A stretch of DNA of 64,000 nucleotides, taken from positions 248,001 to 312,000 of the forward strand of contig JAWMAR010000388.1 of assembly GCA_036785375.1 (NCBI GenBank), in the 5' to 3' direction. The number at the start of each line of letters is the position of its first letter. The first letter of the stretch is position 1. Positions 18,846 to 51,560 of this stretch are shown here, one piece after another. This DNA comes from Leucoraja ocellata (Eukaryota). Under the pieces are notes generated by a model. The model ran no database searches. It saw only the letters and a list, made by a program, of their open reading frames with translations, and had not been told where the DNA came from. The position numbers were made by a program, and so were the translations under genes.

Positions 18846-18847
18846 GC

Positions 18848-20326: not shown

Positions 20327-20480
20327 GATAGACACAACCCTTTGTAGTCACAACCCTTGGTATGAACACAACTTGGTCGAAACAAAGCTTGGTAGACATA
20401 ACCTTCGATAGACACAACCATTGGTAAACACAACCCTGGGTAAACACATCCCTTGGTAGATACAACCTTTGGTAGACACA
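20327..20480. repeat. ~16-17-bp minisatellite
   Basis: ggtagacacaaccctt-like units, ~9 copies. Confidence 0.8.
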
Positions 20481-20616
20481 GCCAGTGGCGTAGCGTGGGG
20501 AGGAGGGAGGAGGGGGGCGGTTGCCCCGGGCGCTAAATTTTTAGGGGCGCAAAAAAATTGTTGCTCCGAGTCCGGGCCACCGTCCCAGTACCCCGCCGCC
20601 CCCCCCCCCCCCCCAG

Positions 20617-28312: not shown

Positions 28313-28834
28313 ATGATAATTTGGGTTATTTTACAGATGAATGCAAGCAACAGGATATCTGAACAGAGGATACAACCGGGACATGGATTTCTTCCCCTCC
28401 CCTTTCCTTTGATTAGCTTTTCGAATTCCAATCAGTACCTGAAGAATTACTGCAGTTGTGTGACATTTTACGTTAACGCTGATACCGACAGATATGAACG
28501 GTAGTTCATTTACAATGTACTTTCTGGTCATATCGCTAGCCGACATTACCCTGCTTCAGTGCTGGACTGGTGAGGAGAGGGGCATCAATTCACTGGTCGA
28601 TCCACAAGTCCAAGGCAGCAGCCTGGAGCTTGCCTGGATTGGGCAATGCCCATAAGGTCTAGAGCGCAGACAGGACTTTGCAGAAAGTGCCAAAACCTGG
28701 CACCTCTTATGTGCGGCGAGCTCAGTAGACTATTTCTGTACACTTTGCTAATGGGGAATTGTGCTTGTATATGGACTGTATGTAAGAAAGGCACTGTTTA
28801 TTTGCACACGTGACAATGAAACCACCATTGAGGG

Positions 28835-29280
28835 TGGGCCCACAAGTTACAATTCTGAATTGGAGCAAGGCTGACTTTCATGGTATTAGATGGGTTGTTT
28901 GCTGGCAAAGGTAAATGGGATGTTTTTAAAAGTGGTGACAAGAGTTCAGGGCATGCATGTTCTTCTTCGAGTGAAGGGAAAGCAGATGGGAGTTACTTGG
29001 ATGACGAGAGAAATTGAAGCTCTTGTCAGGATAAAGGAGGAATCGGGCAGGTGTTGGAAGCTGGGACCTTAAGGCGTATGAAGGAGGATAAATCTTGGCC
29101 AGAACAGATATTATATCCAAGGACATTGTGAGAAGCTCGAGAAATTTCAAACTCCCTGGCTGAGGTATACGAGTGATCATTAGTGAAGTTGCGGAAGAAT
29201 GGAGGGTGGCTAATGTTGCGGATCTATTGAAGAAGGGTTGCAATGAAAGGCCTGAGAACTACAAACTAGTGAGGGATCCA
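28835..29280 (+). mobile_element. Highly decayed CR1 pieces
   Basis: NWSKADF-like and EEWRVANV...LLKKG remnants. Confidence 0.55.
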
Positions 29281-29554
29281 GAAGGGAGTGTTAGAGGAGC
29301 CTCGGCCTTTGGGCTTGTCTACCACGTCTGACATTGTTGCTCCCTGTGCAGACAATTGTGGCGGCTGTAGGAAGGATCAGCAATGGCACTGTGGATCAGA
29401 CAGCCCTTCAAGAGGGACTCAATTAAAAAGCAGATCCTCAGAATCAGAATCTCTGGCTTACTACCTGAGCCACTAACAAGCAAATTGCTTCAACGTGTGG
29501 CTCAAAGATTGGTCTGAGAGAAGTTGGTTCAAATTGGTGGGACACTGTGGTATA

Positions 29555-31603: not shown

Positions 31604-31838
31604 TCCCCCTCTTCCCCACACTCCTCCTCTTCCCCACACTCCCCCTCTCCCACCGTAAATGAAAAACATTCAAATTAAGGATCATTCTAAATATATTTTA
31701 TATAAAATAATGATCAATATTTTAAAACACTATTAACATTTATGACAGAAATTGACCTTGTTGCAGGAAATCAACTTTGAATTGAGATTACATCGAGGTT
31801 GTTAGTGTTGCACAGCGCGGGGTAGCTGACCTCCAGAA

Positions 31839-31952
31839 TCACATCGCTCCTTCTCCGTGGACACGGAACCAGTAGAGGCAAGTGTATTCTGGATAGCCTC
31901 AGTTGTTATGCACCCGCAGTTCAATTAGTTTGACTGCTGCAGCATCTTTATT
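31839..31952 (-). pseudogene. SUN2: SUN-domain terminal exon with premature stop
   Basis: ttgtag|NKDAAAVKLIELRVHNN*GYPEYTCLYWFRVHGEGAM* versus the SUN consensus ELRILTNWGHPEYTCIYRFRVHGE; Trp>TGA at 31899-31901. Confidence 0.93.
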
Positions 31953-32448
31953 CTACAAAGCAAAAAAAAAATGACGACAGATCAGGGAACCTGTGCTTCA
32001 GTATGAAAGTACTGCAGGCAGGAGAGAAGATGGATTAGCTTCAAACCAGACTTAAAACATCCTACTGATCATGGATTTCAGAACATTCTATTCAATTACA
32101 TACAGCATTGATAACAAGCATTTTATTATGGAAAAGGTCGATGCTTTAGAGGTATGAGAAGAACATAGATCTCAAATGACAGCAGCTAAATACTGGGAGC
32201 AACAGCTTTACTGCATGTAGCACCGTGGATGGGGAGAGAACATGCTTACTTACACAGGCTTGCTTTGTGGCAACTGACAAATTGTGAATAAAGTGGCCAT
32301 GAAAAATAAACTTCTATTCTGGAAAGATAAAATGCTGGAGTAACTCAGTGGGTCGGCAGCATTCCTGGACCTGCCTGACCTGCTGAGTTACTCCAGCATG
32401 TTGTGTCTTTCCTCGGTAAACCAGCATCTGCAGATTCTTGTTTCTACA

Positions 32449-32542
32449 ATCTGTAATCTGGATTGGTTCAGCAAGTTTGATGTAGATGCTTCAAGTAGAT
32501 CAGCCACCGATCCAGCTCTCCTCGGTTTCCCTATCTTTGCAT
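32449..32542 (-). pseudogene. Degenerate penultimate SUN-domain exon
   Basis: ttttcag| acceptor; frameshifted ...LL...YIKLAEPIQ resembles SUN LLGKFTYDQDGEPIQ; donor side replaced by a PLE repeat. Confidence 0.45.
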
Positions 32543-34659
32543 CTGAAAACATGTTTATCCTTGACCAGATTGCATGAATGGTCAATTTTAAAAAGTATCT
32601 CTGCGCACCTGCTGCCTGACCCGAGTATTTCTAGCATTGTGTTTCAGTCCTCCATCACCTGCAGATTTGCAATTTTCTATTTGTAACTTGTCATTTGTTC
32701 CAGTCAATATGATATTTGCAATAATACGAGTCTGAAGAAGGGTCTCAAACCGTAACTCCTCCCATTCCTTCTCTCCAAAGATGCTGCCTGTCCCACTGAG
32801 TTACTCCTGCATTTTGTGTTCATCTGCAGCATAAAGCATCTGCAGCATCAACATTTCCTTCTTACACAATGCGCTATTTGCAAATCACAAACTCCTGACA
32901 TACTTGCCAAACATATTTAATCTTCAGCAAAAGACACATGTGAGAGAACTTACTGAGTCCGTCTGATCTCTTGGTGCAGGGGGCGGAAATCCTGGGGGAT
33001 ACAAGGGGGGACTCGTGCTTTGAGAGGTGGGGGACAATCCCCCCCATGTTTTGTCATCCAGACTTTATCAGCCACTTTCTAAGGGCTGAATCGGCCCATT
33101 CGCGGGGCCTTTCAGCGCCCGTCACGGCTTAAAATCAAACTGCTGCATCGAGGCGATCAAGGCTCCCGATGATGAAGCCTCCGCCGGCCGATGAAAGACC
33201 CCGTGAACGGGCCGATTCAAGCCCATGGCCCAAGCCTCGCACTAATGCATCTCGCTCTCTCCTCCAGCCCAGTGCGCCGCTTGACTCGGGGGTGATTCGG
33301 TACAGCGTGGAGTCGGTGCCCGATGATCAGAGGGAACCGAGACCGGGTCATCACCAGGGATGTGGTTCTCTATCTGGAAGGCAGTGGGTCTGCTGCGGCT
33401 GTTGAGAGGGAGAGGGGGAGAGGGCCAAGGTCACTGCCTGAATGGTTGTTGGAAGCAGAACTCACATTTACTGGGCACCTGGACCAGCAGAAGAAGAGGC
33501 TGTGAGCGAGATTCACCTGGCCTCCCAGCACGTAAAACAGAAGCTGGGAACTATAGGTCAATTGACAGGTACATGGATGGGACAGGTTTGGAGGGATATG
33601 GACCAAACGCAGGCAGGTGGGACCAGTGTAGCTGGGACATGTTGGCGGGGGTGGGCGAGTTGGGCCGAAGGGTCTGTTCCCACACTGTATCACTCTTTGA
33701 TTCTAATTCATCCAGCACTCATAGTTCGCAAGAGGAAATAACTAATCATTTGGTCAGCTGCATCTAATCAAATGTAGCCGACATGGTTTATTGAAAATCA
33801 TGTGTGACAAAACTTGACAGGATGTGATAGGGAGTTGATAAGGGAAACGTGTAAATATAGTAGGAAGGAACTGCAAATGCTGGTTTAAACCAAAGATAGA
33901 CACAATAAGCTGGAGTAACTTAGCGGCTCAGACAGCATCTCTGGAGAAAAGGACTTTTCTATTTGTTTTCTCCAGAGATGCTGTCTGACCCGCTGTTACT
34001 CCAGCGTTTAGTGTCTATCTCCTGTAAATGTAGTGTGTATTTAGATCTCCAAAAGGCATTTGCCACATATGAGGCTGCTGCAAAAAAATGAAGAGCCCAA
34101 GATATTGGAGGAAGTGTGCTAACATGGACTGAAAGGTGGCAGTCATATAGAAAAATAAGTTAGAATAAATGCGTGAAAACTGCAGATGGAATAAATCTAA
34201 AAACATAATGCTGGGAGCACTGGGTCAGGCTGCATTTGTAGCCAGAGAAACAGAATTCATGTGTCAAGTCAAAGACCCTTCGTCAGAACTGGGGAGGTGA
34301 CAAAAGAAACTTGTTAAGCTGCACAGGTGGGTGGATGGCTCTGATAGTGTAAAAGCAGGTGACCATGGGGATAAGCTGCACACAAAGTTATCTGGTCAAG
34401 GAGTGAATAGGAGCGGTTAGGTGATAAGAAAAATAGACAAAAGATTGTAGCAGTTGCAAAATGCAGAGCAAGAAGACATGTCTAGGAAGGAACGGCAGAT
34501 GCTGGTTTAAACTGAAGATAGACAACGGGACAGGCTGCATCTCTGGAGAGAAGGAATGGGTGACGTTTCCGGTGGAGACGCTTTTCAGACAAGACATGTC
34601 TGGCAGGTCAGCATGGACATGCCCTCTACTTTTGGATAGAGATTTTAAAAACAAGCTAA

Positions 34660-34780
34660 CCCAATTGCAGGCAGCTCAGCAGTGCCCCATGGATCGAACA
34701 CAGGTCCTCCGCAAAGTAGAAACCCAACGTCTGTTTGGTTTCCCCAGTGTAGAGGAGGCCACGTCGTGAACACAGGGAAA
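34660..34780 (-). mobile_element. Old PLE GIY-YIG remnant
   Basis: CSRRGLLYTGETKQTLGFYFAEDL. Confidence 0.6.
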
Positions 34781-35001
34781 GGAGCAGAGGGGGAAAAGAA
34801 GAGACAGTGAGAGAAAGGGAAGAACGCAGTAGAGAGGGAGGGGGAGAGTGGGAGTTGAGTGTTAAAGAAGGGGAGGGAAGAGGGCAAGATACTTTCCACA
34901 CTTTCCTCTTCACCTCAATCTCTTTGATCATCTCCAAGGCAGAAGAAGTGGTAAGTTTTGGCCTTTTACAGTTAAATAAAAAACTATTTGGGAAAACTTA
35001 C

Positions 35002-35121
35002 ATCAGTCATACTTTTAAGTCTGCTTTCCAAAGCTTGCATGCTGGAGTCCATGTCCTTCTGTGCCACACGTGCAGCCTGCAGCTCCAGCCGTGTCTGGCT
35101 GTGGCCCAGACAAAATCTGTC
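35002..35121 (-). pseudogene. SUN2-like coiled-coil exon
   Basis: tgtatag| and |gtaagt, 120 nt, phase 0-0: DRFCLGHSQTRLELQAARVAQKDMDSSMQALESRLKSMTD; heptad pattern aligns by eye with SUN2 ELAALALKQ...QIQAVRDD. Confidence 0.7.
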
Positions 35122-35311
35122 CTATACAGGGCAAAGCAAGCCATCAGAGTGCAGGAGCCGAGGCAGCATGGTGGTGCAGCAGTAGAGCTACGGCCTTACA
35201 GCGCCAGAGACCCGGGTTCAATCCTGTAAGGGTGATTGTTGGTCTGCACGGACTCGGTGGGCTGAAAGGCGTGTTTCCACGTTGTACCTCGAAACGAAAG
35301 ACGATGTTGAC

Positions 35312-35375
35312 CTGTTGCACGCAGCAACCGACGAAGCCCCCACCCCCCCAGGGTCTGCTGCTACTCCACTCCTGG
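35312..35375 (-). pseudogene. Candidate SUN2-like 64-nt exon
   Basis: ctccag| and |gtcaac; phase 2-0, bridges the 44-nt and 120-nt exons in frame; protein similarity is weak. Confidence 0.45.
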
Positions 35376-35742
35376 CTGGAGACGCACAGAATCAGCGTTA
35401 TACTACTCACAGCTCAGCCACAGGCAAACCTGCTGCCGTGCCACAACCCCAGGGGAATCTTGATGCATCTGCAGATACTGTGGCCTACAACATCAACACG
35501 AAAACATTTGTGGCGTGACGTGGCGTGATGACGTATGACGCACGGTGTTTTTTCAAGTGTCACAACATTTTTTTTGTCGCCGCTGTATTTTGAAATGTTC
35601 AAAATCTTTTGGCGACACTGATATGACGCCAGCAGTCACTGAACAAAATTGCCAAGTGGGACAGGCCCTTAAATGAGTTATTTATCTCTATCGTTGTGAG
35701 CAGTTGATGCAGTCTGGAAACTGCCGCAGCTCAGCTCTGCAC

Positions 35743-35786
35743 CTTTCCACAGCTGATTCCATTTCCTTCACCTTCTGCAACAACAT
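35743..35786 (-). pseudogene. SUN2-like 44-nt coiled-coil exon
   Basis: ttcctag|MLLQKVKEMESAVE(S)|gtgcag; phase 0-2, compatible with the next exon. Confidence 0.6.
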
Positions 35787-36261
35787 CTAGGAATAGAAAT
35801 TAAAAACAAAGTTTATTTGCAAGTTTGGAGGCTTTTTAATTCTACTCGCAGCTACTTATGTCACAACATACACGTCAAAGTTACAAATATGTAATGCAGA
35901 AAAGTCACGTTTCCATACTTCATATTTCCTTATGACATAGGCCATTTCAGCCCATCAAATCATTGCCAGCTCTCAGAGAATCCCAGTCATTCACAAATTT
36001 TCCTTGAAACTAGTTCCTCATGAATTCCCGTCAATTGCCCGCAGAATCCACCATTCAAGTTAAAGCAAACTTCACTGAACTGTAGCAGCTTAACATCTAA
36101 AGGATGGGAAATGCAGGGAATTCTCTGCCCAAGTGGCTACGGAGACCAGTCCTTGAGACCAGTTCAACAGCGAGGTGACTGGCCTTAATATAACGGAATT
36201 GAGAGTATGGCATTAAATGTGCTGAGATAAATGGTCTGACTGAGAGGTAGAGCAGCTGAGG

Positions 36262-36420
36262 AGCAGCATGGTGGTGCAGCGGTAGAGTTGCTGCCTCACA
36301 GCACCAGAGCCCCAGGTTCGATCTGTACGGAGTTTTTACATTCTCCCAGTGAGCTATGTGGACTTTCTCCAGGTGCTCCGGCTTCCACCCACACTCCAAA
36401 GACGTACAGGTTTGTTAGCT
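36262..36420 (+). mobile_element. HE1-type SINE, 3'-interrupted
   Basis: gcagcatggtggtgcagcggtagagttgctgcctcacagc...ccacactccaaagacgtacagg. Confidence 0.8.
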
Positions 36421-37898
36421 AAATCTATATAATTAAAACTCTGATCTTGACCACTTCCTGTTGCACTGCATATTGATTTAAGAAAAAACGCTACAACTTA
36501 CGACTGTGATTTTTGGCCATCTTACTCAGAGTCCCCATCTGCTGTGCAGGGCCAGAGGATTTTTCCCATCGATGAAAAATAAAAGACTTATTAATGTTTA
36601 AAAATGTTGAGATTCACTCTCTTGTCCATCACACCATGAAGGTCATACCAGGGACTATAAAACCCGCAAGTGTAGAGGTGCCTCAGTTCTCTGCAAGATG
36701 GTGGGGAGAGACAGGTCACAGCTCAGTCTGAATAACACTGAACAGATGTCTATTAAACTGTGAGTGGTTTTACTGACCTGTCAGTGCCATTAATGTGGTT
36801 TGAAAATGTAGTTTGAAAATGCAGAAGTGTGTTTTGGTTTGAAGACGCTAAAGCTGCTTTTGGTTTCAAAACGCTAAAGCTGCCTTTGGTTTCAAAACGC
36901 TAAAGCCGCCTTTGGTTTCAAAACGCTAAGGTTACCCAAGATTATCGAATTCAGTTCAAGTCCAGAGGACTGCCATGAGCCCAAATGGGAAATGCTAAAC
37001 CCGCCTTTGGTTTTCAAAACGCTAAAGTTGCCTTTGGTTTCAAAACACTAAACCTGCCTAAGGTTTGAACTCGCTAAAGCTGCCTAAGGTTTGAAATAGC
37101 TAAAGCCGCCTTTGGTTTGAAAACGCTAAAGCCGCCTTTGGTTTGAAAAATCTAAAGCCGCCTTTGGTTTGAAAACGGTAAAACATAGAAAATAGGTGCC
37201 GGAGGAGGCCATTCGGCCCTTTGAGCCAGCACCGCCATCCATTGTGATCATGGCTGATCGTCCTCTATCAATAACACGTATCTGCCTTCTCCCCATATCC
37301 CTTGACTCCACTAGCCCCTAGAGCTCTATCTAACTCTCTCTTAAATTGATCCAGTGACTTGGCTTCCACTGCCCTCTGTGGCAGGGAATCCATAAATTCA
37401 CAACTATCTGGGTGAAAATGTTTTTTCTCACCTCAGTCTTAAATGACCTCCCCTTTATTCTAAGAATGTGGCCCCTGGTTCTGGACTCGACCAACATTTT
37501 TCCTGCATCTAGCTTGTCCAGCTTGTCCAGTCATATTATAATTTTATATGTTTCTATAAGATCCTAAGGTCCCATTTGCTTTCCCAATACTATTCCTCGC
37601 CTTATGAAAATTTATTTCAGTTCCTTTACCCCCTTACAGTACATCTGGGAGATTGTTTGTGTCTTCCTTAGTGAAGACAGATCCGAAGTACCTATTCAAC
37701 TCTTCTGCCATTTCCTTGTTGCCCATAAAAATTTCACCCGTGTCTGCCTTTAAGGGACCCACATTTGACTTTGCTACGCGTTTTCCCTTATTATATCTAA
37801 AGAAGCTTTTACTGTCCACCTTTATATTGCTGGACAGCTTCCCTTCGTACTATATCTTTTCAGCATATTTTTGCCTGTTTTGTTTCCTTCTATTGTAC

Positions 37899-38127
37899 TG
37901 TTGAGTATGTGATAGAAGTGGTGTTATCTGCCTACAAGTTAAAGGGGGAAGAGTGTTAGGTATGTGATAATTAGCATATGTAATTAGCATATATAATGAG
38001 TGTCTTGTCATATGTTATGCAAGTACGCATGTGCGGGAGACTCAAGGTGGCCTCCTGTAGTAAAGAAGCTTGTATAATTACTCCCGTGTCCGAGCCTTTA
38101 TTCAAGTGTGCTAAGCATCCCGAATAC
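37899..38127 (+). mobile_element. Possible solo LTR
   Basis: TGT...ACA ends, ~230 bp, TATA-like and AGTAAA motifs; no TSD seen. Confidence 0.3.
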
Positions 38128-38500
38128 ACCTCCTACCAAGGCTCCTCCTTTCAACATCTCCACTGACCTCCTTGCCCCTCCTCCACACTGCTTCCTCTCC
38201 CAGTTTGACCTGGTCACCCCTACTGAAATCTCCAAACTCATCAGCTCTTCCAAACCCACTACCTGCTCCCTCGACCCTCTCCCCACTCCCCTGCTGAAGT
38301 CCTGCCTCCCCATTCTCTGCCCCTACCTCACTAATCTCTTCAACTCCTCATTGTCCCAAGGAATTGTCCCCTCCGCTTTCAAAACTTCTGCTGTCACACC
38401 AATCTTAAAGAAACCTGGTCTTGATCCCTCCTCTCTCATTAACTACTGCCCAATCTCAAACCTCCCCTTTCTTTCAAAAACCCTGGAGTGTATCGTTGCT
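38128..38500 (+). mobile_element. L2-clade LINE RT fragment
   Basis: KPTTCSLDPLPTPLLK...NSSLSQGIVPSAFK..VTPILKKPGLDP...PISNLPFLSKTLE. Confidence 0.88.
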
Positions 38501-41500
38501 TCCGGCTACTCTTTGCTGTGTTATACATCTTTTCTTTTAGTTTTATTCTATCCCTGACTTCTCTTGTCAGCCACGGTTGCCTCCTACTCCCCTTAGAATC
38601 TTTCTACCTTTTTAGAATAAAATGATCCTGCGTCTTCCGGATTATGCCCAGAAATTCCTGCCATTGCTGTTCCACCTTCATTCCTGCTATGATCCCTTTC
38701 CAGTCTACATTGGCCAGCTCCCCTCTCATGCCTTCATAGTCCCCTTTGTTCAACTGCATCACTGCCACTTCCGATTTAACGTTCTCCTTCTCAAATAAAG
38801 CCGCCTTTGGTTTGAAAACGCTTAATCCGCCTTTGGTTTGAAAACGCTAAAACATAGAAAATAGGTGCCGGAGGAGTTCATTCGGCCCTTCGAACCAGCA
38901 CTGCCATTCATTGTGATCATGGCTGATCGCCCCCTATCAATAACCCTATCAAGTACCTGCCTTCTCCCCATATCCCTTGACTCCACTAGCCCCTAGAGCT
39001 CTATCTAACTCTCTCTTAAATTGATCCAGTGACTTGGCGTCCACTGCCCACTTTGGCAGGGAATTCCATAAATTCACAACTATCTGGATGAACATTTTCC
39101 TGCATCTAGCTTGTCCAGTCATATTATAATTTTATATGTTTCTATAAGATCCTAAGGTCCCATTCGCCTACCCAATACTATTCCTCGCCTTATGAAAATT
39201 TCTTTCAGTTCCTTTACCCCCTTACAGTACATCTGGGAGATTGTTTGTGTCTTCCTTAGTGAAGACAGATCCGAAGTACCTATTCAACTCTTCTGCCATT
39301 TCCTTGTTGCCCATAATAATTTCACCTGTGTCTGCCTTCAAGGGACCCACATTTGACTTTGCTATGCTTTTTCCCTTAATATATCTAAAGTAGCTTTTAC
39401 TATCCATCTTTATATTCCTGGACAGCTTCCCTTCGTACTTCATCTTTTCAGCCCTTATTGCCCGTTTTGTTTCCTCCTATTGTCCTCTGAAAGTTTCCCA
39501 ATCCTCTGGCTTCTGGCTACTCTTTGCTGTGTTATACATCTTTTCTTTTAGTTTTATTCTATCCCTGACTTCTCTTGTCAGCCACAGTTGCCTCCTACTC
39601 CCCTTAGAATCTTTCTTCCTTTTTAGAATGAAATGATCCTGCGTTTTCCGGATTATGCCCAGAAATTCCTGCCATTGTTGTTCCACCTTCATTCCTGCTA
39701 GGATCCCTTTCCAGTCTACATTGGCCAGCTCCCCTCTCATGCCTTCATAGTCCCCTTTGTTCAACTGCATCACTGCCACTTCCGATTTAACGTTCTCCTT
39801 CTCAAATAAATCCGTCTTTGTTTTCAAAACGCTAAAGCTGCCTTTGGTTTCAAAAAGCTAAAGCCACCTTTGGTTTGAAAACGCTAAAGCTGCGCTTGGT
39901 TTGAAAACGCTAAAGCTGCCTTTGGTTTCAAAACACTAAAGCTGACTAAGGTTTAAAAACACTATAACTGAATAAGGTTTGAAAACGCTAAAGCTGCCTA
40001 AGGTTTGAAAAAGCTAAAGCTGCCTTTGGTTTCAAGACGCTAAAGCCGTGTTTGGTTTGAAAACGCTAAAACATATAAAATAGGTGCCGGAGGAGGCCAT
40101 TCGGCCTTTCGAGCCAGCATCGCAATTCATTGTGATCATGGCTGATCGTCCCCTATCAATAACCCGTATCTGCCTTCTCCCCATATCCCCTGAATCCACT
40201 AGCCCCTAGAGCTATACCTAACTCTTTCTTAAATCCATCCAGTGACTTGGCTTCCACTGCCCTCTGTGGCAGGGAATTCCATAAATTCACAACTCTCTGG
40301 GTGAAAATGTTGTTTCTCACCTCAGTCTTAAATGACCTCCCCTTTTTTCTAAGACTGTGGCCCCTGGTTCTGGACTCGCCCAATATTGGGAACATTTTTC
40401 CTGCATCTCGCTTGTCCACTCATATTATAATTGTATATGTTTCTATAAGATCCTAAGGTCCCATTCGCCTACCCAATACTATTCCTCGCCTTATGAAAAT
40501 TTATTTCAGTTCCTTTATCCCCTTACAGTACATCTGGGAGATTCTTTGTGTCTTCCTTAGTGAAGACAGATCCGAAGTACCTATTCAACTCTTCTGCCAT
40601 TTCCTTGTTGCCCATAATAATTTCACCCGTGTCTGCCTTCAAGGGACCCACATTTGACTTTGCTACGCTTTTTCCCTTAATATATCTAAAGAAGCTTTTA
40701 CTATCCATCTTTATATTCCTGGACAGCTTCCCTTCGTACTTCATCTTTTCAGCCCTTATTGCCCGTTTTGTTTCCTTCTATTGCCCTCTAAAAGTTTCCC
40801 AATCCTCTGGCTTCTGGCTACTCTTTGCTGTGTTATACATCTTTTCTTTTAGTTTTATTCTATCCCTGACTTCTCTTGTCAGCCACGGTTGCCTCCTACT
40901 CCCCTTAGAATCTTTCTTCCTTTTTAGAATGAAATGATCCTGCGTTTTCCGGACTATGCCGAGAAATTCCTGCCATTGCCGTTCCACCTTCATACCTGCT
41001 ATGATCCCTTTCCAGTCTACATTGGCCAGCTCCCCTCTCATGCCTTCATAGTCCCCTTTGTTCAACTGCATCACTGCCACTTCCGATTTAACGTTCTCCT
41101 TCTCAAATAAATCCGTCTTTGTTTTCAAAACGCTAAAGCTGCCTTTGGTTTCAAAAAGCTAAAGCCACCTTTGGTTTGAAAACGCTAAAGCTGCGCTTGG
41201 TTTGAAAACGCTAAAGCTGCCTTTGGTTTCAAAACACTAAAGCTGACTAAGGTTTAAAAACACTATAACTGAATAAGGTTTGAAAACGCTAAAGCTGCCT
41301 AAGGTTTGAAAAAGCTAAAGCTGCCTTTGGTTTCAAGACGCTAAAGCCGTGTTTGGTTTGAAAACGCTAAAACATATAAAATAGGTGCCGGAGGAGGCCA
41401 TTCAGCCTTTCGAGCCAGCATCGCAATTCATTGTGATCATGGCTGATCGTCCCCTATCAATAACCCGTATCTGCCTTCTCCCCATATCCCCTGAATCCAC

Positions 41501-42510
41501 TAGCCCCTAGAGCTATACCTAACTCTTTCTTAAATCCATCCAGTGACTTGGCTTCCACTGCCCTCTGTGGCAGGGAATTCCATAAATTCACAACTCTCTG
41601 GGTGAAAATGTTGTTTCTCACCTCAGTCTTAAATGACCTCCCCTTTTTTCTAAGACTCTCTCATGCCTTCATAGTCCCCTTTGTTCAACTGCATCACTGC
41701 CACTTCCGATTTAACGTTCTCCTTCTCAAATAAATCCGTCTTTGGTTTCAAAACGCTAAAGCTGCCTTTGGTTTCAAAAACCTAAAGCTGCCTTTGGTTT
41801 CAAAACGCTAAAGCTGCCGGCTATTGAACCCAACCCCGTCAAAAGCGAGATGGATAGAAAAAGCCGCTGTAACTCAGTGGGTCGGGCAGCATCTCTGGAG
41901 TCTGAAGAAGGGCGTTGTCCTGAAATGTCACCCATTCCTTCTTTCCAGGGGCGCCGCCCCACCCGCTGAGTTACTCTAGCTTTTTGTATCTATCATTGGT
42001 TTAAAACACCATCTCCAGTTCCTACCCACACACGTTTCAAGCAAATCGAATGCTCCCATCAAACAGACAGAATCAGGTCAATGATTATGGTCAAGAGATG
42101 GACAGACCCCTCCATGGACCCACGCTGCTGACTGACCTTCACTTCACAAACTCAAAGCTCAGAGCCATGGTGACACTGGTGCAAAGATTAGTCAACCTAG
42201 GGTACAGGATCAGAGGGCTGTTCTGTGGATGTATCTGGGGTAGAGTGTGGGCAGGCTATCTTGTAGTCTGTGGATCGAACGGCCGAATGGCCTACTCCTG
42301 CAACATTTGTCTATGTTTATTTCTGTTTCCAGTGGGTTTATCTGGGGTACTACAAGTGGGTTGGCCTGTGGTGGGTTTACCTGGGGTACAATAAATGGGT
42401 TATCATTTTTTAAGTTTAGTTTAAAGACACAGCACTGAAACAGGCCCTTCGGCCCACCTAGTCAGCACCGGCCAACGATTCCCACCCACTAACACTACCC
42501 TACACAGACT

Positions 42511-43900
42511 AGAGTCATAGAGTGATACAATTTGGAAACAGGCCTTTCGGCCCAACTTGCCCACACCGGCCAACAATGTTCCAGCTACACTAGTCCCACT
42601 TGACTGCACTTAGTCCATATTCCTCCAAACCTGTCCTATCCATGTACCTATCTAATTGTTTTTTAAAACGATGGGATAGTCTCAGCCTCAACTATCTCCT
42701 ATGGCAACTTGTTCCATACACCCACCACCTTATGTGTGAAAACGTTACCCTTTGGATTCCTATTAAATCTTTTCCCCTTCACCTTGAACATATGTCTCTG
42801 GTCCTCGATTTCCCTACTCTGGGCAAGAAACTTTGCATCTACCCGATCTATTCCTCTCATGATTTTGTATACCTTTATAAGATCTCCCCTCATCCTGCTG
42901 CGCTCCATGGAATAGAGACCCAGCCTACTCAACCTCTCCCCATAGCTCACACCCTCTAATCCTGGCAACATTCTCGTAAATCTTATACAACTGCAACATG
43001 ACCTCCCAGTTTCCACAATCAAATCTCTGACTGATGAAGGCCAATGTGCCAAATCCTTTTTGACCACCTTATCTACGTGTGACTTGATCCTCAAGGAACC
43101 ATGAACCTATACTCCTAGATCCCTCTGCTCTACAACACTACCCAGAGGCCTACCATTTACTGTGTAGGTCCTGCCCTTGTTCAATGTCCTAAAATGCAAC
43201 AACTCACACATCTCTGTATTAAATCTTAAACCTAATCGAACTATGGTCACTGGACCCAAAAGGCTCCTCCACACACACTTCATTAACTTGCCTTCCCAAT
43301 TTCCAAATACTAGATCTAGTGTTGCCCTCTCACGTGTGGGGGCCTCCACATACTGTTTAAGAAAACTCTCCTCAACACGTTTGAGGAATTGCACCCCATT
43401 TAAATCCTTCACGCTATGATTTCCCCAGTCTATATTGAGAAGTTAAAATCCCCTACTCCAACAACCTTATTTGACCAGCAGCTGTCTGCAATCTCCTGGC
43501 ACATTTGTTCTTCTAATTCCCATTGACTATTCGGGTGTCTGTAGTACACCCCTAACAAGGCGATCATCCCTTTCTTGTTCCTCAGCTCCACCCATATAGC
43601 CTCACTAATCGAACCGTCCGTAATGTCACCTCTGAACACTGCCGTGACATCCTCCTTACCCAACAATGCAACCCCCCTCCTCTTTTTCCCTCACCCCTGT
43701 CTGCCCTGAAGCTCCTGTACCCCAGGAACATTGAGCTGCCAGTCCTGTCCCTCCCTTAAGCAGGTTTCAGTCATGGCTACAAGGTCCCAGTCGCTCGTAC
43801 CTATCCATGCCCTCAGCTCATCTGCCTTCCCCGTCAGGCCCCTTTACGTGCAGTTTAAACCAACCCTCCTTCCTCGATCTCTGCTTTTCACCTGCCTATT
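42511..43900 (-). mobile_element. CR1 (third subfamily), 3' end plus EN fragments
   Basis: ORFs 42699-43666: EAIWVELRNKKG...GVYYR...VGDFN, PTRERATLDLV. Confidence 0.9.
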
Positions 43901-44133
43901 CTGACCGGGGTACTTAGTGTGGATGATCAGCCATGATCACATTGCTGGCTTGAAGGGCTGAATGGCCCACTGCTGCACCTATGGTCTATTGTCTATTTAT
44001 CGGTGGTTCAGTGTGACTGGGTGTCCTGTGGGAGGGTGTGTTCAGTACAGAGGTGGGGAGGAGATGGAGGAGGCAGTGGGGATGGGTGTGACCAGGTGGA
44101 GGAAGGGAGTCTGTGGATCCCCGGAGCACGTAC

Positions 44134-44227
44134 CTGGACAGAGTAAAGACATCGATCAAGGAGATGGCCGTTGTTAACTGGTACCAGGCTGTGCCCAACC
44201 ACCAGTACACCAGGGGCAGAGCTTTTT
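44134..44227 (-). pseudogene. SUN2: SUN2-like hydrophobic pre-TM exon
   Basis: ctttcag| and |gtacgt, 94 nt: KALPLVYWWLGTAWYQLTTAISLIDVFTLSR versus recalled SUN2 LLYWWAGTTWYRLTTAASLLDVFVLTR. Confidence 0.92.
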
Positions 44228-44671
44228 CTGAAAGAGACAGCAACACAATATTAGACAACGTTGGGCCCCGATGCTTCACATCAGTGGAAGCGGAGAGTGC
44301 TCAGACTCTCCAACACGGAACGCACTGATACTGTGGAACCACGTCAGGCTGAGAGACCTTCTCCCCTGCAGGGACCACCACAGAAAGTCCACCGCAAGCT
44401 GGTGGCAGGAGAACCCAGGGGAGCTTTAGGGAACCTAAGAAAAAATAGGTTGCCGGGATATCAACGGGCAACAGCACTGATGGGGGTATTCCAGAGGCCA
44501 CGATGGGCCGAATGGCCTCCTTTTGTGTCCAGACTAAATAAACGGGAGATTGTCAATGACATTTCCACCGAGCAGGGAGTATCACATTTCAACACAGAGA
44601 GATTGCCTGGTTGTGGATGGATAGCAGCCCCCTCTGTCCCAGTCAATCTTATCCCACAACCACCATGGGCA

Positions 44672-45010
44672 AAGATAGACACAAAAAGCTGGAGTAACTC
44701 AGCTGGACAGGCAGCATCTCTGGAGAAAAGGAATAGGTGACGTTTCGGGTCGAGACCCTTCTTCAGACTGAGAGTCAGGGGAATGGGAAACAAGCAATAT
44801 AGACGGTGATGTAGAGAGACATGGAACAAATGAATGAACGATATGCAAAAAAGTAACGATGATGAAGGAAAGGGTCCATTGTTGGTTGGCTGTGGGCTCG
44901 GTGTTAACGAATGATACAGACAATGAAACTCACCAGGACGACAGTGAAACTAGTACAATGACAAAGGAGGGGGAGGGACGGAGAGAGAGGGTTACTTGAA
45001 GTTAGAGAGA
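44672..45010 (-). mobile_element. PLE 3' end / pLTR
   Basis: Similar to 55070-55405 in reverse complement. Confidence 0.8.
44736..44769 (-). ncRNA. Minimal hammerhead motif (second PLE subfamily)
   Basis: Reverse complement reads CTGAAGA-A-GGGT-CTCG-ACCC-GAAACGTC. Confidence 0.72.
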
Positions 45011-45550
45011 TCTAGATTTATTGAACATGGGCGTCTGCTGATCACAATGCTGTGTGTGAGCTTGGCCACGGTCCACCACCTTACACTACATTTCAAAAGC
45101 ATCCTCGGTGCCACACAGCTGGGGAAATCTAAAGGGGATCCTATTCTTTCATCACCCCAGTGACCCTGGAGCACAAACCAGGCCTCCCTTAGGTGTTACA
45201 ACATGTCTTCAGTTGGCCTCGAGTAACCGAGCATTGACAGTCAGTCGTCTCTTGATCCAATGGTCCTCTGGGCAACTCACCACTCATCTCAGTGAGTGAC
45301 CCAGTCAGGCTGAGGGAACACACTGGAGTACCAAGCTGGAAGGTGGCTTCCTCCTGCACTGACTGTGGTCCTTAGGCTGCACGAACAACAGAGCACTGGG
45401 GACCAGGCCTTGTGCAAACCCTGGGAGTTTAAGGAGAGAGCAGCAGGCTGTACCTCACCACTGGGTCCAGTATCAGCAGGGCACTGGTTGACTGGGGCAG
45501 AGTTTTGGGGCCATGGACCACAGAAGAGGGAAGATTAGTAATGCAGGTAC

Positions 45551-45619
45551 CTGGAGACAGCAGCGAGATCCAGCCCCACAGCTTGGCAAGGGGAGAGAAC
45601 AATTCAGAGTACGCCAAAC
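45551..45619 (-). pseudogene. Candidate SUN2-like exon (GLAYSELFSPLAKLWGWISLLSP)
   Basis: ccccccag| acceptor and G|gtacct donor; 69 nt, phase 1-1; ending loosely resembles SUN2 LWMVATSP|G. Confidence 0.45.
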
Positions 45620-46922
45620 CTGGGGGGTGGGAAAGAAGAGCAAGATGTCAACAAAGCAAACTTCTCTCTCAAGGTTTACAATGTTCAAAGGGTCATGTGG
45701 CCCAATGTTTGTGGTGCTGTTCACAAAAGCACCATGCAACTGATCGGCCCACGGCTAAACTGTTACTGTGCGGGGATCGCTGATCGGTGCCGACTCGGTG
45801 GGCCGAAGGGCCCGTTTCCACCCTGTATCTCTAAACTAAATTAAAGGAAGGATGTCAAAAGCCTAAGATAGACACAAAGTTCTGGAGTAACTCAGCGGGT
45901 CAGGCAGCATCTCTGTCTGAAAAAGGATGGGTGATGTTTCGGGTCAGGACCCTTCTGCAGACTTCAAGCCGAAGAATTGATTTAGAGAGTGTCTAGAATT
46001 ACAGTAAAGAGTAATTTGGAAAAGTTAGGAGTCCTCTCGGAACAGAGAAGGTAAAAGAGATGACCTATCAAACGTTGAAGATTGTAGCAGGGTTTTACAC
46101 GAGAAAGGATTTGCTATTGAGGGATCAATAAACAGAGGTCACAGCATCAATACTGACAGGATCCAGAATATTCTCTCCAAAACGCTGCAGGAAGTGGATT
46201 CATTCATGATTTTAAGTGGATGGATACACAGGGAGTTGCTGCTGATACAACCTGGAGATTGCAATGGAACGATGCTCCTTAGCAGAAGCTGCATCACTTT
46301 CCACACCTTGCTGAACAGGCGCTATGCAGGGGGAGTTTGTGTCGTCAAATGGCAGGTGTGAGTGTGTGTGTGTGAGTGAGTGAGTGAGTGAGTGAATGGC
46401 GATTAGCTGCCCCAAATAACAGCTCAGTCCTCCTGATGTAACCCAGCATCTGGGAAATCTACAATCCTGTACAACACGTTCAGCTCCTGCCCAGTGTCAG
46501 TCCACGGCCCACTCACCCACCCACAGCCCACCTCAGTAACAGCCCCTCACCTGCCCCAGTAACGGGACCCTCACACCCCACCCGCTTCATTTACCCTCTC
46601 AACCGTCAGCCCGCTTACATGTCCCTCACCCCCTTCCCAGTAACAGCACATACACCCACCCCATGTCCCGACACCCACGTCTTGTAATAGCCCACTCAAC
46701 CTCACCCTGCCCCAGCAATGGGGTGTTCACCCCCACCCCCCAACATCCTCCACTCACCCCTCTCCTGTCCGCCTCCCAGCACCCGGCGGGATAGGCAAAG
46801 TCTCACAGCAGCTGTGCGATGATCGCTGGTCAGCGCGGACTCGTTGGGCCAAAGGGCTCGTTTCCAACTAAAACTGAGATACTGTTGCACGAGTCTCCGG
46901 GACACGTACCCCGGACACGTAC

Positions 46923-47108
46923 CGACGGGCTCCTGCCAGCCGCTGCTGCTGCTGAGGTGCAGAGAGCTGAGAGCGCTTGGAGGAGTTGCTGACGTTGCTG
47001 ATGTTGCTGATGTAGCTACTCAGACTGTTGACTGAACTGTTGGACGGTGAACGTTTGACACCAGGCACAGGTCCCGGCCTCTTGCTGTTTGACCTTTTCT
47101 TGTGCAAC
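46923..47108 (-). pseudogene. SUN2: SUN2-like second coding exon (acceptor AG>GG)
   Basis: Phase-2 start fits the previous exon: RLHKKRSNSKRPGPVPGVKRSPSNSS..., similar to SUN2 RTLKRKSSNMKRLSPAP. Acceptor reads tttcgg; donor gtacgt. Confidence 0.7.
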
Positions 47109-47875
47109 CCGAAACGATAAAGGGCAATGATTTAGGACGGAGGCAGACCAGGACTGCGAAAGAGAAGCAAAAAAGTAACGATGATAAAGGAAACTGGCCA
47201 TTGTTAGCCATTTGCTAAATGAGAATGAGAAGCTGGTGCGACTTGGGTAGGGGAGGGATGGAGAGAGTCGCTTGTCAGAGCTAGGAAAGGGGGGGGGGGG
47301 GGAGAAGATTGGTTCTCACGGGGAAAGAATATCATGATTCTCTCTCTCTCTCTCTCCCCCTCCTCAAGGAACTGCAGATGCTGGTTTATAAAAAAGTCAC
47401 AAAGTGCTGGAGTAACTCAGCGGGTCAGGCAGCGCCTGTTCACGTTCCCTCCAACATCCCTCATGAGCCCATCAAACGAATGGCTTGATCAACAACTTAT
47501 TGGCACGGCAACCCTGCCCTTGGCCTATGGAAGTTATACCCCACATCCAATCATCCTCCACCTGAGATTCCAAGCAGGAAAGAAGAGGCTGTTGGAACTT
47601 TCCTTGAGGTTTTGTCCTGTAGGGAAAGGTTCAGTTGGGGTTAGGGGGAGGGAGGAATGGGAGGGAGGGAGGGGGGCGATTGGGAGGGGAGGCCGTGCTG
47701 CGGGAGGAGAGGGAAGGGGGGGTGGGCGGAGGGTTGGAGTTGTGATACACAGCTCCCTGAGTGAGGAACGAGGGTGGAGGCTGCATCTTTACTGTTAGAA
47801 AGGAGCATAGCTTAGGGAGGAAAGAACGAGAGGGAGAGGGGGGGAACGAGACAAGAGAGAGTTAGAGAGACACAC

Positions 47876-47986
47876 CTGACGGGAGTCTCCATGTAAGAGG
47901 GAGCGCCGGATTTGGTGGAGCTACCGCTGCTGCTGGAGGCGTCGTCGTTGTGCTGGTTGTAGCCGTTGGTGGCCAGACGGGGACTG
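47876..47986 (-). pseudogene. SUN2: SUN2-like first coding exon, 5' end truncated by CR1
   Basis: SPRLATNGYNQHNDDASSSSGSSTKSGAPSYMETPVR|gtgtgt, compared with recalled SUN2 MSRRSQRL...DDDGSSSSGGSS...KDSPLR. MSRR is missing at the CR1 junction (~47986). Confidence 0.85.
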
Positions 47987-48830
47987 AGGAGGATGCTATG
48001 AGAATGCAGGGTGACTTGGACAAGTTGGGTGTGTGGGCAGATGCATAGCAGATGCAGTTTAATGTGAGGTTATCCACTTTGGTCACAAAAACAGGAAGGT
48101 AGATTATCTAAATGGAGTCAAGTTGCGAAAAGGGGAAGTACAACGGGATTTGGGGTCCTTGTTCATCAGTCAATGAAAGTAACCATGCAGATAAAGCAGG
48201 CAGTGATGAAAGCAAATGGCATGTTGACCTTCATAACAAGAGGAGTTGAGTATTGGAGTAAAGTTGTTTTGCAGTTGTACCGGGCCCTAGTGAGACCATA
48301 CCTGGAGTATTGTGTGGAGTTTTGATCTATAAATTTGAGGAAGGACATTCTTGCTATTGAGGGAGTGCAACGTAGGTTCACAAGGTTAATTCCCGGGATG
48401 GCGTATATGCTGAGAGAATGGAGCGGCTGGGCTTGTACACTCTGGAATTTAGAACTATGTAAGCGGATCTTATTGAAACATATAAGATTATTAAGGGTTT
48501 GGACACGCTAGAGGCAGGAAACATGTTCAAGATGTTCGTTGAGTCCAGAACCAGGGGCCTCAGTTTAAGAATAAAGGGTAAGCCATTTAGAACGAAGATG
48601 AGGACACACTTTTTCCACACAGAGTCTGTGGAAATCTCTGTCTCACAGGGCGGCAGAGGCCGGTTCACTGGATACTTTCAAGAGAGAGCTAGATAGTGCT
48701 CTTGAAGATAGAGGAGTTAGGGAATATGGGGAGAAGGCAGGAACTGGGTACTGATTGTGGAAGATCAGCCATGATCACATTGAATGGCGGTGCTGGCTTG
48801 AAGGGCCGAATAGCCTACTCCTGCACCTAT
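47986..48830 (+). mobile_element. CR1 3' part abutting the SUN2-like first coding exon
   Basis: EEDAMRMQGDLD... through to the 3' UTR stem gaagggccgaatagcctactcctgcacctat. Confidence 0.9.
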
Positions 48831-50449
48831 TATCGGGGAATCTACAACTAGGGGACAGAGGCGTGGGTGACAGGAGAACGATTATACGGGCAACCTGAGG
48901 GGCAACCTTTCCAACAGAGAGTGGAGGGGACATGGAACGAACTGCCAGAGGAGGTGATTTAGTGTTTAAATTATGTTTGGTGAGGGATATGGATTGGAAA
49001 GGTTTAGAGGGATATGGGCCAAACACAGGCAAATGTGAACAGACTGGGAAGGCTCCTTTGTCAGCATGGACGAGGAGTAGGGCTGAAGGGCCTGTTTCTC
49101 TATTTTATGTCACTTTCAATGGAGGGTCGGTGACCTGACACATTAATGGGGTCAGACCTACAAAGCGTCTCCCGTTTTCATTTCGGACTTCTAGCATCTG
49201 CGCGTTTTGCTTTTCAACTGGCTAGCGCCAGCCAACACCAGCTGCAGGGCCAACACTGCTTCCACTCAACATGCGAGGCTGTGCCCAAACAGCAGATAAC
49301 ATCTCAGACAACACAAGGCACAGACCACGTGACAACTGGCAAAGATTCCCACAACACTGCATCATTTACTACACCCTTCAATCATGGCTGATCTATCTTT
49401 CCCCATCATCTCCATTCTCCCGCCTTCTCCCCATAACAACCTCATTTTCACATTCACTCCCTTACACACTAGGGATAATTTACAGAGGCCAATAAACCTA
49501 CAAATCTGCATGTTTTGGGGACTAGTTATACCTTGCTGTATCAAGTGTCTAACACATGGCTGCCTACGCCCACTGCCTGAACGGAAGATAGTCACAAATG
49601 CTTGACCAATCACCAATCCCCCTGTCCCTCGCTCTTCCCCCACTGGCCAGTAAACCCATTCCATTTCCATAATTTCTCCAGTTTCTTTGAGAAATTTCAC
49701 CGGATCTGCTTCCTTCTCTGTTTTGGAACAAATGTGACCAACTCTACACTGCGCCACCGTGCCACCCTTTTAAACCTTCACCGTCAACACAATGACCTTG
49801 TCGTCCTTACTCATGACTTCTCCTCACTCACAATCCTTTGTGGTTTTACACGTCTCCCCCAACCCCTCCTACTCACCCCCACCGGCCTGTCCACATGGCT
49901 TGTGCAGGAAGGAACTGCAGATGCTGCTTTACACCAAAGATGGACACAAAATGCTGGAGAAACTCAGCAGGACAGGCATCATCACTAGAGCGAAGGAATG
50001 GGTGACGTTTCTTGTCGAGATCCTTCTTCAGACTGATGTCAGGAGAGTGGGAGATATCCTTATCTATACACTTATAGATTTCCTTGTCTATACACTTCCT
50101 TATCTATGTACCTCCCACTCCCCTGTATTTGTCTGAAGAAGCGTCTAGACCAGAAACGTCACCCATTCCTTCTCTCCAGAGATGCTGCCTGTCCTGTAGA
50201 GTTACTCCAGCATTTTGTGTCTATCTAAGACAATACAGGGACCAGACAATCCAACTGGAACCAAGTGGAGCTTTACAGCCCCCACCTGACTGTGAGCCCA
50301 TAAACAAGGCTTCCTCAACAGTCTAAAGGGCCTGTCCCACTCACGCGATTTTTTTCGGCGACTGCCGGCACCCGTCATAGTCGCATTTTCAACACGTTGA
50401 AGATCCAGCGTCGACCAGGAAAAGGTACGACTCTTTGGACGACTATTCA

Positions 50450-51560
50450 CGACCATACAGGCGTCACGTGTCGACAGGTCTGGAGCCATGGGAGGGAGAG
50501 GCAGAGGCTGCGGTCTGGGGGAGGTTCTTGCCCCAGGTCCCGCTCCTCTCCCTGCCCACGGGCTCGGAGCAACAGCCCCCGGACCCCACACCGGCTCGAA
50601 CCCCAGCCCAGGGCCCGGAGCCGCACTCAGGGCCCAGTCCGTGTCTGTGTCCGCTCCTCAGCGACCAAAGCCCGGGCCCGGCTACAGCTCCGAGGCTCGG
50701 CCCACACCAGGCATCTTCCTTCACCTTCCCTCTTCTTTCCCCTCTCCTCCTCCCTCAATCACCTCTCCCTCCCTCAGTCACTCCCTTCCTCCCTCCATAA
50801 CCCCTCTCCCTGCCTGCCTGCTTCCCCCACACCTCACCTCTACCCTATCCCACCCCACACGATGTTTAATGTCAATGAGATTCGGGATTCCATCGTGATG
50901 TCATTGACAGGCAGGGCAAGTGGAAGCGGCTTTAAAAGTCGTTTTTGTAAAGTTACAAATGGCAATAACTTGTACAATACGTCTTTAAAGTGTGCGGTTG
51001 GTTCATTCAGCGGTGCGGCGCCCCTGGGCTCTGACAGCGCTGTCGTGGGTCGGTGTTTAAGGGGAGGCAGTCAAGGGGGTGAGGCTGGGAGCCGCCCCCG
51101 TCCGCAGGGCCCCCGGCGCCGGGAGGAGCGGTCACCTGTGCGGGGCCAGGGACCGACACGACAGACAGACAGACTCACCGAGTGATGATCCCTGCGGGGT
51201 CCGAGCAGCAGAAGCTTCGCCGCGGCGCCGGGAACAAGGAGCGGGAGCGTGGCCACTTCACCCACTCCCCTTCTGGTCGCCACCCGTCCCCGCCGCACCT
51301 AGAGTATAATATAGTATAGTAGATGATGGTAGGGTAGAGTATAGCTGAGCTGAGCAGTGCAGACACCAGACACGACCTCCTCCAACGCCGTCTGTCTGTG
51401 TCTGTGTCTATGTCCCGCCCCCGGTGCCGCTGCCCATTGTCTGCATCGTTCAAAATGCTACATTCTAGAGTGTTAGTTTGTGTCGCGGCTCCACCCCACC
51501 GGGGGGGTGGGGACAGGAACCGTGACAACTGCGGCACCATCACCCCCACGTTCCAACCAG
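50450..51560. promoter_or_regulatory. CpG-island-like region; possible promoter and 5' UTR exon (51179-51298, -) of the SUN2-like locus
   Basis: High GC and CpG density; - strand ctctag| acceptor and |gtgagt donor; lies upstream of the first coding exon. Confidence 0.4.

What the first reader, a model, noticed from the sequence alone, without database searches (positions are those of the whole stretch)
31839..51298. Hidden intron-containing SUN2-like pseudogene convergent with the IgM cluster
Seen: at least six collinear - strand exons with splice sites, including YWWLGTAWYQLTTAISLIDVF and the SUN signature ELRV.NN*GYPEYTCLYWFRVHGE. Lesions are Trp>stop at 31899-31901, an AG>GG acceptor at 47109-47110, loss of the ATG at a CR1 junction, and several exons that could not be found. 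Known: SUN2 is a LINC-complex gene, and cartilaginous fish IgH genes multiply as V-D-D-J-C clusters. Inference: because introns are retained this is a DNA-level duplicate, possibly a passenger that travelled with the IgM cluster. It could then mark the duplication unit and the ancestral neighbourhood of these clusters.
Basis: partly seen in the sequence, partly recalled or inferred. Interest (0 to 1): 0.75.

Follow-up and report, generated by a model that had tools for sequence, protein, structure and literature searches.

The report
Broken copy of amplified skate SUN2
This is a broken, intron-containing copy of the nuclear-envelope gene SUN2, one of a family of extra copies seen in two skate genomes, and it likely came to lie 22 kb from an antibody (IgM) gene through recent duplication rather than ancient shared history.

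Summary
Seven collinear minus-strand exon remnants (31839-47985) match skate SUN2 but cover only 227 of 674 residues; the transmembrane exon and most of the SUN domain are gone. The reported stop, GG acceptor and CR1-replaced start are real, and I found two more frameshifts. It is an unprocessed pseudogene.

The main new result is that SUN2 is amplified in rajid skates: 10 gene models on 3 contigs in Amblyraja radiata (8 on the contig that holds intact SUN2) and models on 11 contigs in Leucoraja erinacea. Each of 14 other shark and ray species shows one contig. The window copy falls in a duplicate clade (bootstrap 96) that predates the Amblyraja-Leucoraja split. Several duplicates keep long open frames, and one appears spliced.

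The 'ancestral IgM neighbourhood' idea is not supported: catshark SUN2 is off the IgH/TCR chromosome, and the duplicates are far younger than IgM clusters. A young rajid IgM+SUN2 co-duplication was not excluded, because no genome is held and IgM read depth was not measured. Nine literature searches found no report of the amplification.

The parts
51179..51298 (-). Candidate 5' untranslated exon in a CpG-rich stretch; link to SUN2 inferred, not shown
   Evidence: AG and GT ends; CpG o/e 0.73-0.78; 5 of 8 RNA molecules of run X22 begin at 51176 and DNA depth is raised like the SUN2 exons; no protein match
47985..48831 (+). CR1-type LINE fragment standing where the acceptor, ATG and first four codons of SUN2 should be
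   Evidence: 75-82% alike to other CR1 copies in the window, with homology starting at 47985; CR1 label from RVT_1 on sister copies and recalled motifs
47876..47985 (-). SUN2 exon A remnant (residues 5-41), GT donor, no acceptor
   Evidence: 68% identical to intact skate SUN2 and 70-84% to duplicates
46923..47108 (-). SUN2 exon B; GG instead of an AG acceptor; frameshift near 46963
45551..45619 (-). SUN2 exon C, intact splice sites
   Evidence: 85-92% identical to rajid SUN2 proteins
44134..44227 (-). SUN2 exon D (YWWLGTAWYQLTT), intact splice sites
   Evidence: 97% identical to A. radiata SUN2
35787..44131 (-). 8.3-kb interval lacking the exons for residues ~203-345 (transmembrane helix, coiled coil); 69% in-window repeats
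   Evidence: no profile hit above noise; repeat share
35743..35786 (-). SUN2 exon E (MLLQKVKEMESAVER); out of phase with exon D
35002..35121 (-). SUN2 exon F; about 19 codons at its 5' end replaced by 21 unrelated bases, giving a frameshift
31953..35001 (-). 3-kb interval lacking the exons for residues ~413-637 (most of the SUN domain)
31839..31952 (-). SUN2 last exon G, with premature TGA at 31899-31901 and YRF changed to YWF in the final motif
9906..31838 (.). 21.9-kb spacer between IgM and the SUN2 copy; 69% in-window repeats (LINE fragments, a 2.9-kb satellite); no Pfam hit in the non-repeat frames tested
2018..9905 (+). IgM constant region: CH1 2018-2314, CH2 3663-3980, CH3 4435-4737, CH4 plus secretory tail 5850-6241, TM1 9635-9762, TM2 9897-9905; open frames and canonical splice sites
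   Evidence: C1-set hits; CH1-CH4 87-98% identical to little skate Ig mu P0177; TM1 98% identical to P0019

Best explanation
This is a disabled, intron-retaining copy of SUN2 that belongs to a family of SUN2 duplicates seen in two rajid skates, and it likely arose by segmental DNA duplication from an array near the parent gene and likely reached the side of this IgM locus as a later, incidental event. Shown: exon order, splice sites, the lesions, membership in the duplicate clade, and many SUN2-like models in A. radiata and L. erinacea. Inferred: unequal recombination in LINE-rich DNA built the array before Amblyraja and Leucoraja split; some copies moved to other chromosomes; this copy then lost exon blocks by deletion, lost its start to a CR1 fragment and decayed, so it makes no SUN protein.
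For: Lesions; 227 of 674 residues remain. Copy census: A. radiata has 8 accession groups on the 19,490,429-bp contig with intact SUN2, plus one each on 66.1-Mb and 46.8-Mb contigs. L. erinacea has intact SUN2 on a 13.1-Mb contig, one copy on a 170.1-Mb contig, and copies on 9 contigs of 48-229 kb. Each of 14 other chondrichthyan species with a contig length shows one contig. Tree of exons A-D (20 sequences, 152 columns): window plus 9 duplicates 96, intact pair 82, Rajidae 100, with Rhinoraja outside; two subclades each hold both genera (97 and 79). Summed contig depth over SUN2 exon B, C and D bins is 14-17 times higher in organism A than in organism C after scaling by 10 repeat bins; this is suggestive only. 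Against old linkage: catshark SUN2 contig 27.7 Mb versus IgH/TCR coordinates up to 133.5 Mb; the one A. radiata IgM model found is on a 104.9-Mb contig where no SUN2-like model was seen.
Against: No whole genome is held, so no other IgM cluster of this animal was inspected. Skate Ig constant regions are almost absent from the protein set: 1 model. Copies without gene models are invisible, in skates and in the outgroups alike. One search covered only proteins of 370-1180 aa and listed 120 of 194; one search had only 62 candidates. The census may overcount, since neighbouring models can be halves of one copy and small contigs can be haplotype duplicates. The tool states that summed depth is no copy number, and the depth excess is uneven: 1.2-5.6 times in 7 of the 11 non-repeat bins. 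Exons D and F are closest to intact SUN2 (97%, 91%) while exon A is closest to duplicates, so the copy may be a mosaic; its place inside the duplicate clade is unresolved (support 51).
Confidence: 0.72

Rival explanations
1. A young composite unit: after SUN2 began to amplify in rajids, one copy joined an IgM cluster and the pair then duplicated together, so the pseudogene marks a rajid-specific duplication block.
For: Both are multicopy and 21.9 kb apart, well inside the 120 to >200 kb spacing given for shark IgM clusters (PMC5192425 passage). The same review says clusters can be spread over many chromosomes, citing a Raja study that I saw only as a reference. SUN2-like models occur on several chromosomes and small contigs.
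Against: No Ig model shared a contig length with any SUN2-like model among 27 hits and 10 clusters looked up, a weak test. A. radiata model P0018 joins two IgM constant regions on a contig where no SUN2-like model was seen. The spacer is 69% in-window repeats.
Confidence: 0.2
2. Ancestral neighbourhood: SUN2 lay beside IgH in the chondrichthyan ancestor and has travelled with clusters since.
For: Only the adjacency in this window. PMC12227049 notes that not all Ig genes lie in the main complex.
Against: The duplicates nest within Rajidae. One SUN2 contig per species in 14 other species. Catshark SUN2 is off chromosome 17. White shark SUN2 is on a 33.1-Mb contig, while a 10-domain Ig model that I take to be the chromosome-27 UrIg2 is on a 20.4-Mb contig (the match is my inference). 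No SUN hit in that paper's supplements, though its table lists only Ig, TCR and a few marker genes.
Confidence: 0.04
3. The lesions are assembly errors and this is the working SUN2 or a working paralog.
For: The lesions were not checked in reads of the source animal; no indexed run held more than 0.55 of the sampled words.
Against: There are at least seven independent defects, including two exon blocks of 140-225 codons and a retroelement junction. The IgM exons in the same window are clean. The copy groups with duplicates, not with intact SUN2.
Confidence: 0.03

Closest known systems
Vertebrate SUN2 (LINC complex inner nuclear membrane protein; Pfam PF07738), best match A. radiata XP_032869440
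   Same: Seven exons in the same order, 68-97% identical per exon; C-terminal SUN motif
   Different: No start codon, no transmembrane exon, about 100 of 132 SUN profile positions missing, two frameshifts and a stop
RefSeq 'SUN domain-containing protein 2-like' models of Amblyraja radiata and Leucoraja erinacea
   Same: Same duplicate clade, with shared exon A residues (SPRL, ETP) absent from intact SUN2; shared intron sequence (P0013 96% over 27 codons, P0014 86% over 42 codons)
   Different: They are automatic annotations and were not described as a family in the papers searched. Several keep a full SUN domain (P0009, P0175, P0173, P0169, P0052, P0051), whereas this copy is far more decayed. 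No listed model is this copy (at most 87% identity).
Unprocessed (duplicated) pseudogenes from lineage-specific segmental amplification (general knowledge)
   Same: Introns and a probable promoter exon kept, birth-and-death pattern, array near the parent gene plus dispersed copies
   Different: The amplified gene is a normally single-copy nuclear-envelope gene. Mammalian SUN3, SUN4/SPAG4 and SUN5 are old, stable paralogs (recalled), not a young amplicon.
Elasmobranch IgH miniclusters and the antigen-receptor complex (PMC12227049)
   Same: Complete IgM constant region with secretory and membrane exons
   Different: The published neighbours are TCR alpha/delta, PSMB5, UrIg2 and IgL; SUN2 is not mentioned in the main text or supplements, and no skate is among the four species mapped

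Membership tests
SUN2 homolog | Similarity to the C-terminal SUN domain (PF07738) | tested here: met
   E 2.9e-07, 31 bits against a cut-off of 22, last 31 profile positions only
SUN2 homolog | SUN2 rather than SUN1 descent | tested here: met
   All 12 hits of exon D are named SUN2-like; per-exon identity 68-97% to skate SUN2; nests among chondrichthyan SUN2. SUN1 was not in the tree, and exon G alone scored slightly higher on mammalian SUN1 than SUN2 chains (40.4 versus 37 bits).
Functional SUN2 protein | Open frame with start, transmembrane helix, coiled coil and whole SUN domain | tested here: not met
   227 of 674 residues present; lesions
Unprocessed pseudogene | Introns retained, exons collinear with splice sites | tested here: met
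   6 of 6 donors are GT; 5 of 7 acceptors are AG
Unprocessed pseudogene | Disabling lesions | tested here: met
   Stop, two frameshifts, lost start, GG acceptor, missing exon blocks
Unprocessed pseudogene | Intact parent elsewhere in the same genome | not testable with these tools
   No genome held; intact SUN2 exists in two related skates (P0007, P0044)
Unprocessed pseudogene | This copy yields no productive transcript | tested here: inconclusive
   RNA runs X22 and X23 give low exon depth at 88% likeness and come from other animals; reads cannot be assigned to this copy
Passenger co-duplicated with IgH miniclusters | Other IgH clusters carry a SUN2-like neighbour | tested here: inconclusive
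   Only one skate IgM gene model was retrievable; its contig has no SUN2-like model among those found
Passenger co-duplicated with IgH miniclusters | Intact SUN2 lies on the IgH/TCR chromosome in outgroups | tested here: not met
   Catshark 27.7-Mb contig versus chromosome 17 coordinates to 133.5 Mb; white shark 33.1 versus 20.4 Mb, by inference
Passenger co-duplicated with IgH miniclusters | Copy numbers of IgM and SUN2-like rise and fall together across species | not tested
   SUN2-side depth measured; IgM-side depth was not obtained
Passenger co-duplicated with IgH miniclusters | Concordant trees of C-mu and SUN2 copies | not testable with these tools
   No paired loci available
IgM V-D-D-J-C minicluster | V, D and J segments with RSS 5' of C-mu | tested here: inconclusive
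   None in the window; only 2 kb lies upstream of CH1

The most novel reading that the evidence does not exclude
Rajid skates carry a young ampliconic SUN2 family of tens to hundreds of copies, in which at least three diverged subfamilies still encode and express altered LINC proteins, and the SUN2-bearing duplication block is also the vehicle that scattered IgM clusters over skate chromosomes; this pseudogene is a fossil of that block. The coding-paralog half alone I put near 0.4.
Probability: 0.15. Interest if true: 0.75.

Novelty: new member of a known kind. Interest (0 to 1): 0.42.

Why it matters
The pseudogene itself is ordinary. What it reveals is a lineage-restricted amplification of SUN2, which appears on a single contig in the 14 other sharks and rays seen here. 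If some duplicates are coding and germline-expressed, skates would offer a natural case of rapid LINC-complex diversification, which bears on meiotic chromosome attachment and on ampliconic gene families. If the block also carries IgM, it would give a marker for how skate Ig clusters became dispersed. Both are testable directly on two public assemblies.

Tried and rejected
1) Whole-genome search: no genome held.
2) Linkage by matching contig lengths of Ig and SUN2-like proteins: one skate Ig model in 27 hits; the best 150 of 1181 representatives gave two skate-like Ig fragments, both on 1-kb contigs. Inconclusive.
3) IgM read depth for the copy-number comparison was not obtained, so that test is open.
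4) Hidden remnants of the missing exons: none above noise in 3204 chunks.
5) Other genes: I scanned 243 frames against Pfam, 238 of them drawn from the 380 non-repeat frames of 35 aa or more and 5 added by hand. Only RVT_1 was hit, in 3 frames. Short exons without a Pfam domain would be missed.
6) Processed retrocopy: rejected, introns and splice sites are present.
7) Telomeric origin of the spacer satellite: TTAGGG is not enriched (31 seen, 44.6 expected).
Only the exon A-D tree is used; 11 of 31 aligned sequences were left out because they do not cover those exons.
9) Selection on duplicates: a rough count gives a 0.10-0.27 chance per subfamily of escaping a stop under neutrality, ignoring indels and annotation bias. 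Not decisive.
10) Expression: no RNA holder listed, which is no evidence either way.
11) Earlier findings of the scan: 6 look-ups, all empty.
12) Literature: searches returned 0 papers; SUN2 occurred 0 times in the 30 of 59 listed; some searches listed 2, 6 and 8 papers, none on this. The library lacks most subscription papers, and one supplement of PMC10115646 was unreadable.
Full report
Observation. The window holds an IgM constant region on the plus strand (CH1 to TM2, 2018-9905) whose four domains are 87-98% identical to little skate Ig mu, so the animal is a skate by inference. On the minus strand, tblastn with A. radiata SUN2 (P0007, 674 aa) and a profile of 14 chondrichthyan SUN2 proteins find seven exon remnants in order, from 47985 down to 31839. 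The last matches PF07738 and solved SUN1 and SUN2 chains. All six donors are GT and five of seven acceptors are AG. This is far beyond chance: five exons have profile E-values below 1e-10.

Lesions. I add a frameshift in exon B near 46963, a replaced and frameshifted start of exon F, and a phase clash between D and E. Three blocks are absent: residues about 97-145, which some intact isoforms also skip (P0044), about 203-345 including the transmembrane segment, and about 413-637, most of the SUN domain. In all, 227 of 674 residues remain. The copy cannot encode a SUN protein. The lesions were not checked in reads of the source animal, but their number and kind make assembly error unlikely.

A multicopy family. 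A search with exon D returned 12 proteins of 62 candidates, all skate 'SUN2-like' models. With the full-length search and cluster look-ups, A. radiata has 10 accession groups: 8 on the 19,490,429-bp contig that also holds intact SUN2, and one each on contigs of 66.1 and 46.8 Mb. L. erinacea has models on 11 contigs: 13.1 Mb (intact), 170.1 Mb, and nine of 48-229 kb. Fourteen other sharks and rays with a recorded contig, including the softnose skate Rhinoraja, show one contig each; a fifteenth had no contig on record. Limits: one search saw only proteins of 370-1180 aa and listed 120 of 194; cluster members were read only for Rhinoraja and Pristis among outgroups; unannotated pseudogenes are invisible; and split models or haplotype contigs may inflate the skate count.

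Phylogeny. A tree of exons A-D (20 sequences, 152 columns, JTT+G4, 1000 ultrafast bootstraps) puts the window copy with nine duplicates (96), sister to the two intact rajid SUN2 (82), inside Rajidae (100), with Rhinoraja outside. Two subclades each contain both genera (97; 79, with an inner pair at 92). The amplification therefore began after the Rhinoraja split and before Amblyraja and Leucoraja parted. The window's position within the clade is unresolved (51). Its exons D and F are closest to intact SUN2 while A is closest to duplicates, which hints at mosaicism.

Are other copies alive? In the C-terminal ~419 residues, three duplicate groups are 85-90% identical to intact SUN2, yet one group is 97-97.5% identical between the two genera, against 98.3% for intact SUN2. 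Six models keep a whole SUN domain. P0172, 384 aa on a 1465-bp contig and 96.9% identical to an A. radiata duplicate, must be intronless, so I infer a spliced transcript. A rough neutral expectation gives a 0.10-0.27 chance per group of escaping a stop. This leans towards constraint but is not decisive without DNA.

Read depth. Laying two DNA contig sets on 43900-51400 at 88% likeness gave single contigs over SUN2 introns with depth up to about 4690 (X1) and 906 (X5), beside long low-copy pieces at 7-11 and 29-34. Scaled by 10 repeat bins (median ratio 0.64), four bins over and beside exons B, C and D are 14-17 times deeper in organism A than in organism C; the other 7 non-repeat bins are 1.2-5.6 times. 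The tool warns that summed depth is no copy number, so I take this only as a hint of high and variable copy number. The matching measure on IgM was not obtained.

Relation to IgM. The genes converge across 21.9 kb, of which 69% is repeated within the window, including a 2.9-kb satellite. No other gene was detected in the frames scanned. PMC12227049 (I read parts 1-2 of 8 of the text, searched text and supplements, and read table S1 whole) maps IgM, IgW and IgNAR near TCR alpha/delta and PSMB5 in four non-skate species and does not mention SUN2. Catshark SUN2 lies on a 27.7-Mb contig, which cannot be chromosome 17 with genes at 133 Mb. White shark gives the same answer by inference (33.1 versus 20.4 Mb). 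The paper also says that not all Ig genes lie in this complex. Since IgM miniclusters occur across elasmobranchs (PMC5192425, passages only) and the SUN2 duplicates are rajid, the pseudogene cannot mark an ancestral neighbourhood. A younger composite unit remains possible; the one A. radiata IgM model found is on a 104.9-Mb contig with no SUN2-like model seen, a weak negative.

Mechanism. Most likely (0.72): SUN2 duplicated at DNA level in an early rajid and expanded as an array near the parent; copies spread to other sites; this one, or the IgM cluster beside it, arrived by a later rearrangement in LINE-rich DNA; the copy then decayed. Anatomy, lesions, clade and census are shown. Array building by unequal recombination, the order of events and the incidental nature of the adjacency are inferred. 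Rivals: a young IgM+SUN2 co-duplication (0.20), ancestral linkage (0.04), assembly error (0.03).

Novelty. The locus is a new member of a known kind, an unprocessed pseudogene. The amplification was not found in print in nine searches, nor in the little skate genome paper PMC10115646 (term search of the text and of 3 of 4 supplements). The copies are, however, visible as automatic RefSeq models, and most subscription papers were not searched.

Noticed in passing
window 20618-23531 (and an inverted short array at 19237-19420): Degenerate G-rich 10-bp satellite, 289 copies, between IgM and the SUN2 copy; telomere-like in look but TTAGGG is not enriched. It could mark a rearrangement junction.
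   Followed up: partly
window 36990-41657: A unit of about 1.3 kb (CR1 fragments plus a 26-bp minisatellite) repeated three to four times at 89-98% identity inside the SUN2 D-E interval: recent local tandem duplication.
   Followed up: partly
window 8509-9037 and 31069-31597: Two CR1 3' ends 97.9% identical over 529 bp in opposite orientation, one in the IgM intron before TM1 and one about 240 bp past the SUN2 stop: a young family, and a possible substrate for inversion of the spacer.
   Followed up: no
window 46985-47017 and protein P0175: Exon B holds a 9-bp tandem repeat; a little skate model reads the same shifted frame near here as the window does, so this frameshift may be shared or recurrent.
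   Followed up: partly
protein P0172 (1465-bp contig): Intronless 384-aa SUN2 duplicate-type frame, implying that at least one duplicate is transcribed and spliced.
   Followed up: partly
protein P0018 (A. radiata, 104.9-Mb contig): One gene model fuses two tandem IgM constant regions, so skate IgM clusters also occur in tandem.
   Followed up: no
window 52500-53750: Second CpG-rich stretch (o/e 0.78-0.94) upstream of the SUN2 copy, no Pfam hit; probably a repeat end, unexplained.
   Followed up: no
window 23528-24872 and 61386-62730: Two retroelement fragments 95% identical over 1347 bp; Penelope-like by recalled motifs, with a weak RVT_1 hit next to the second.
   Followed up: no
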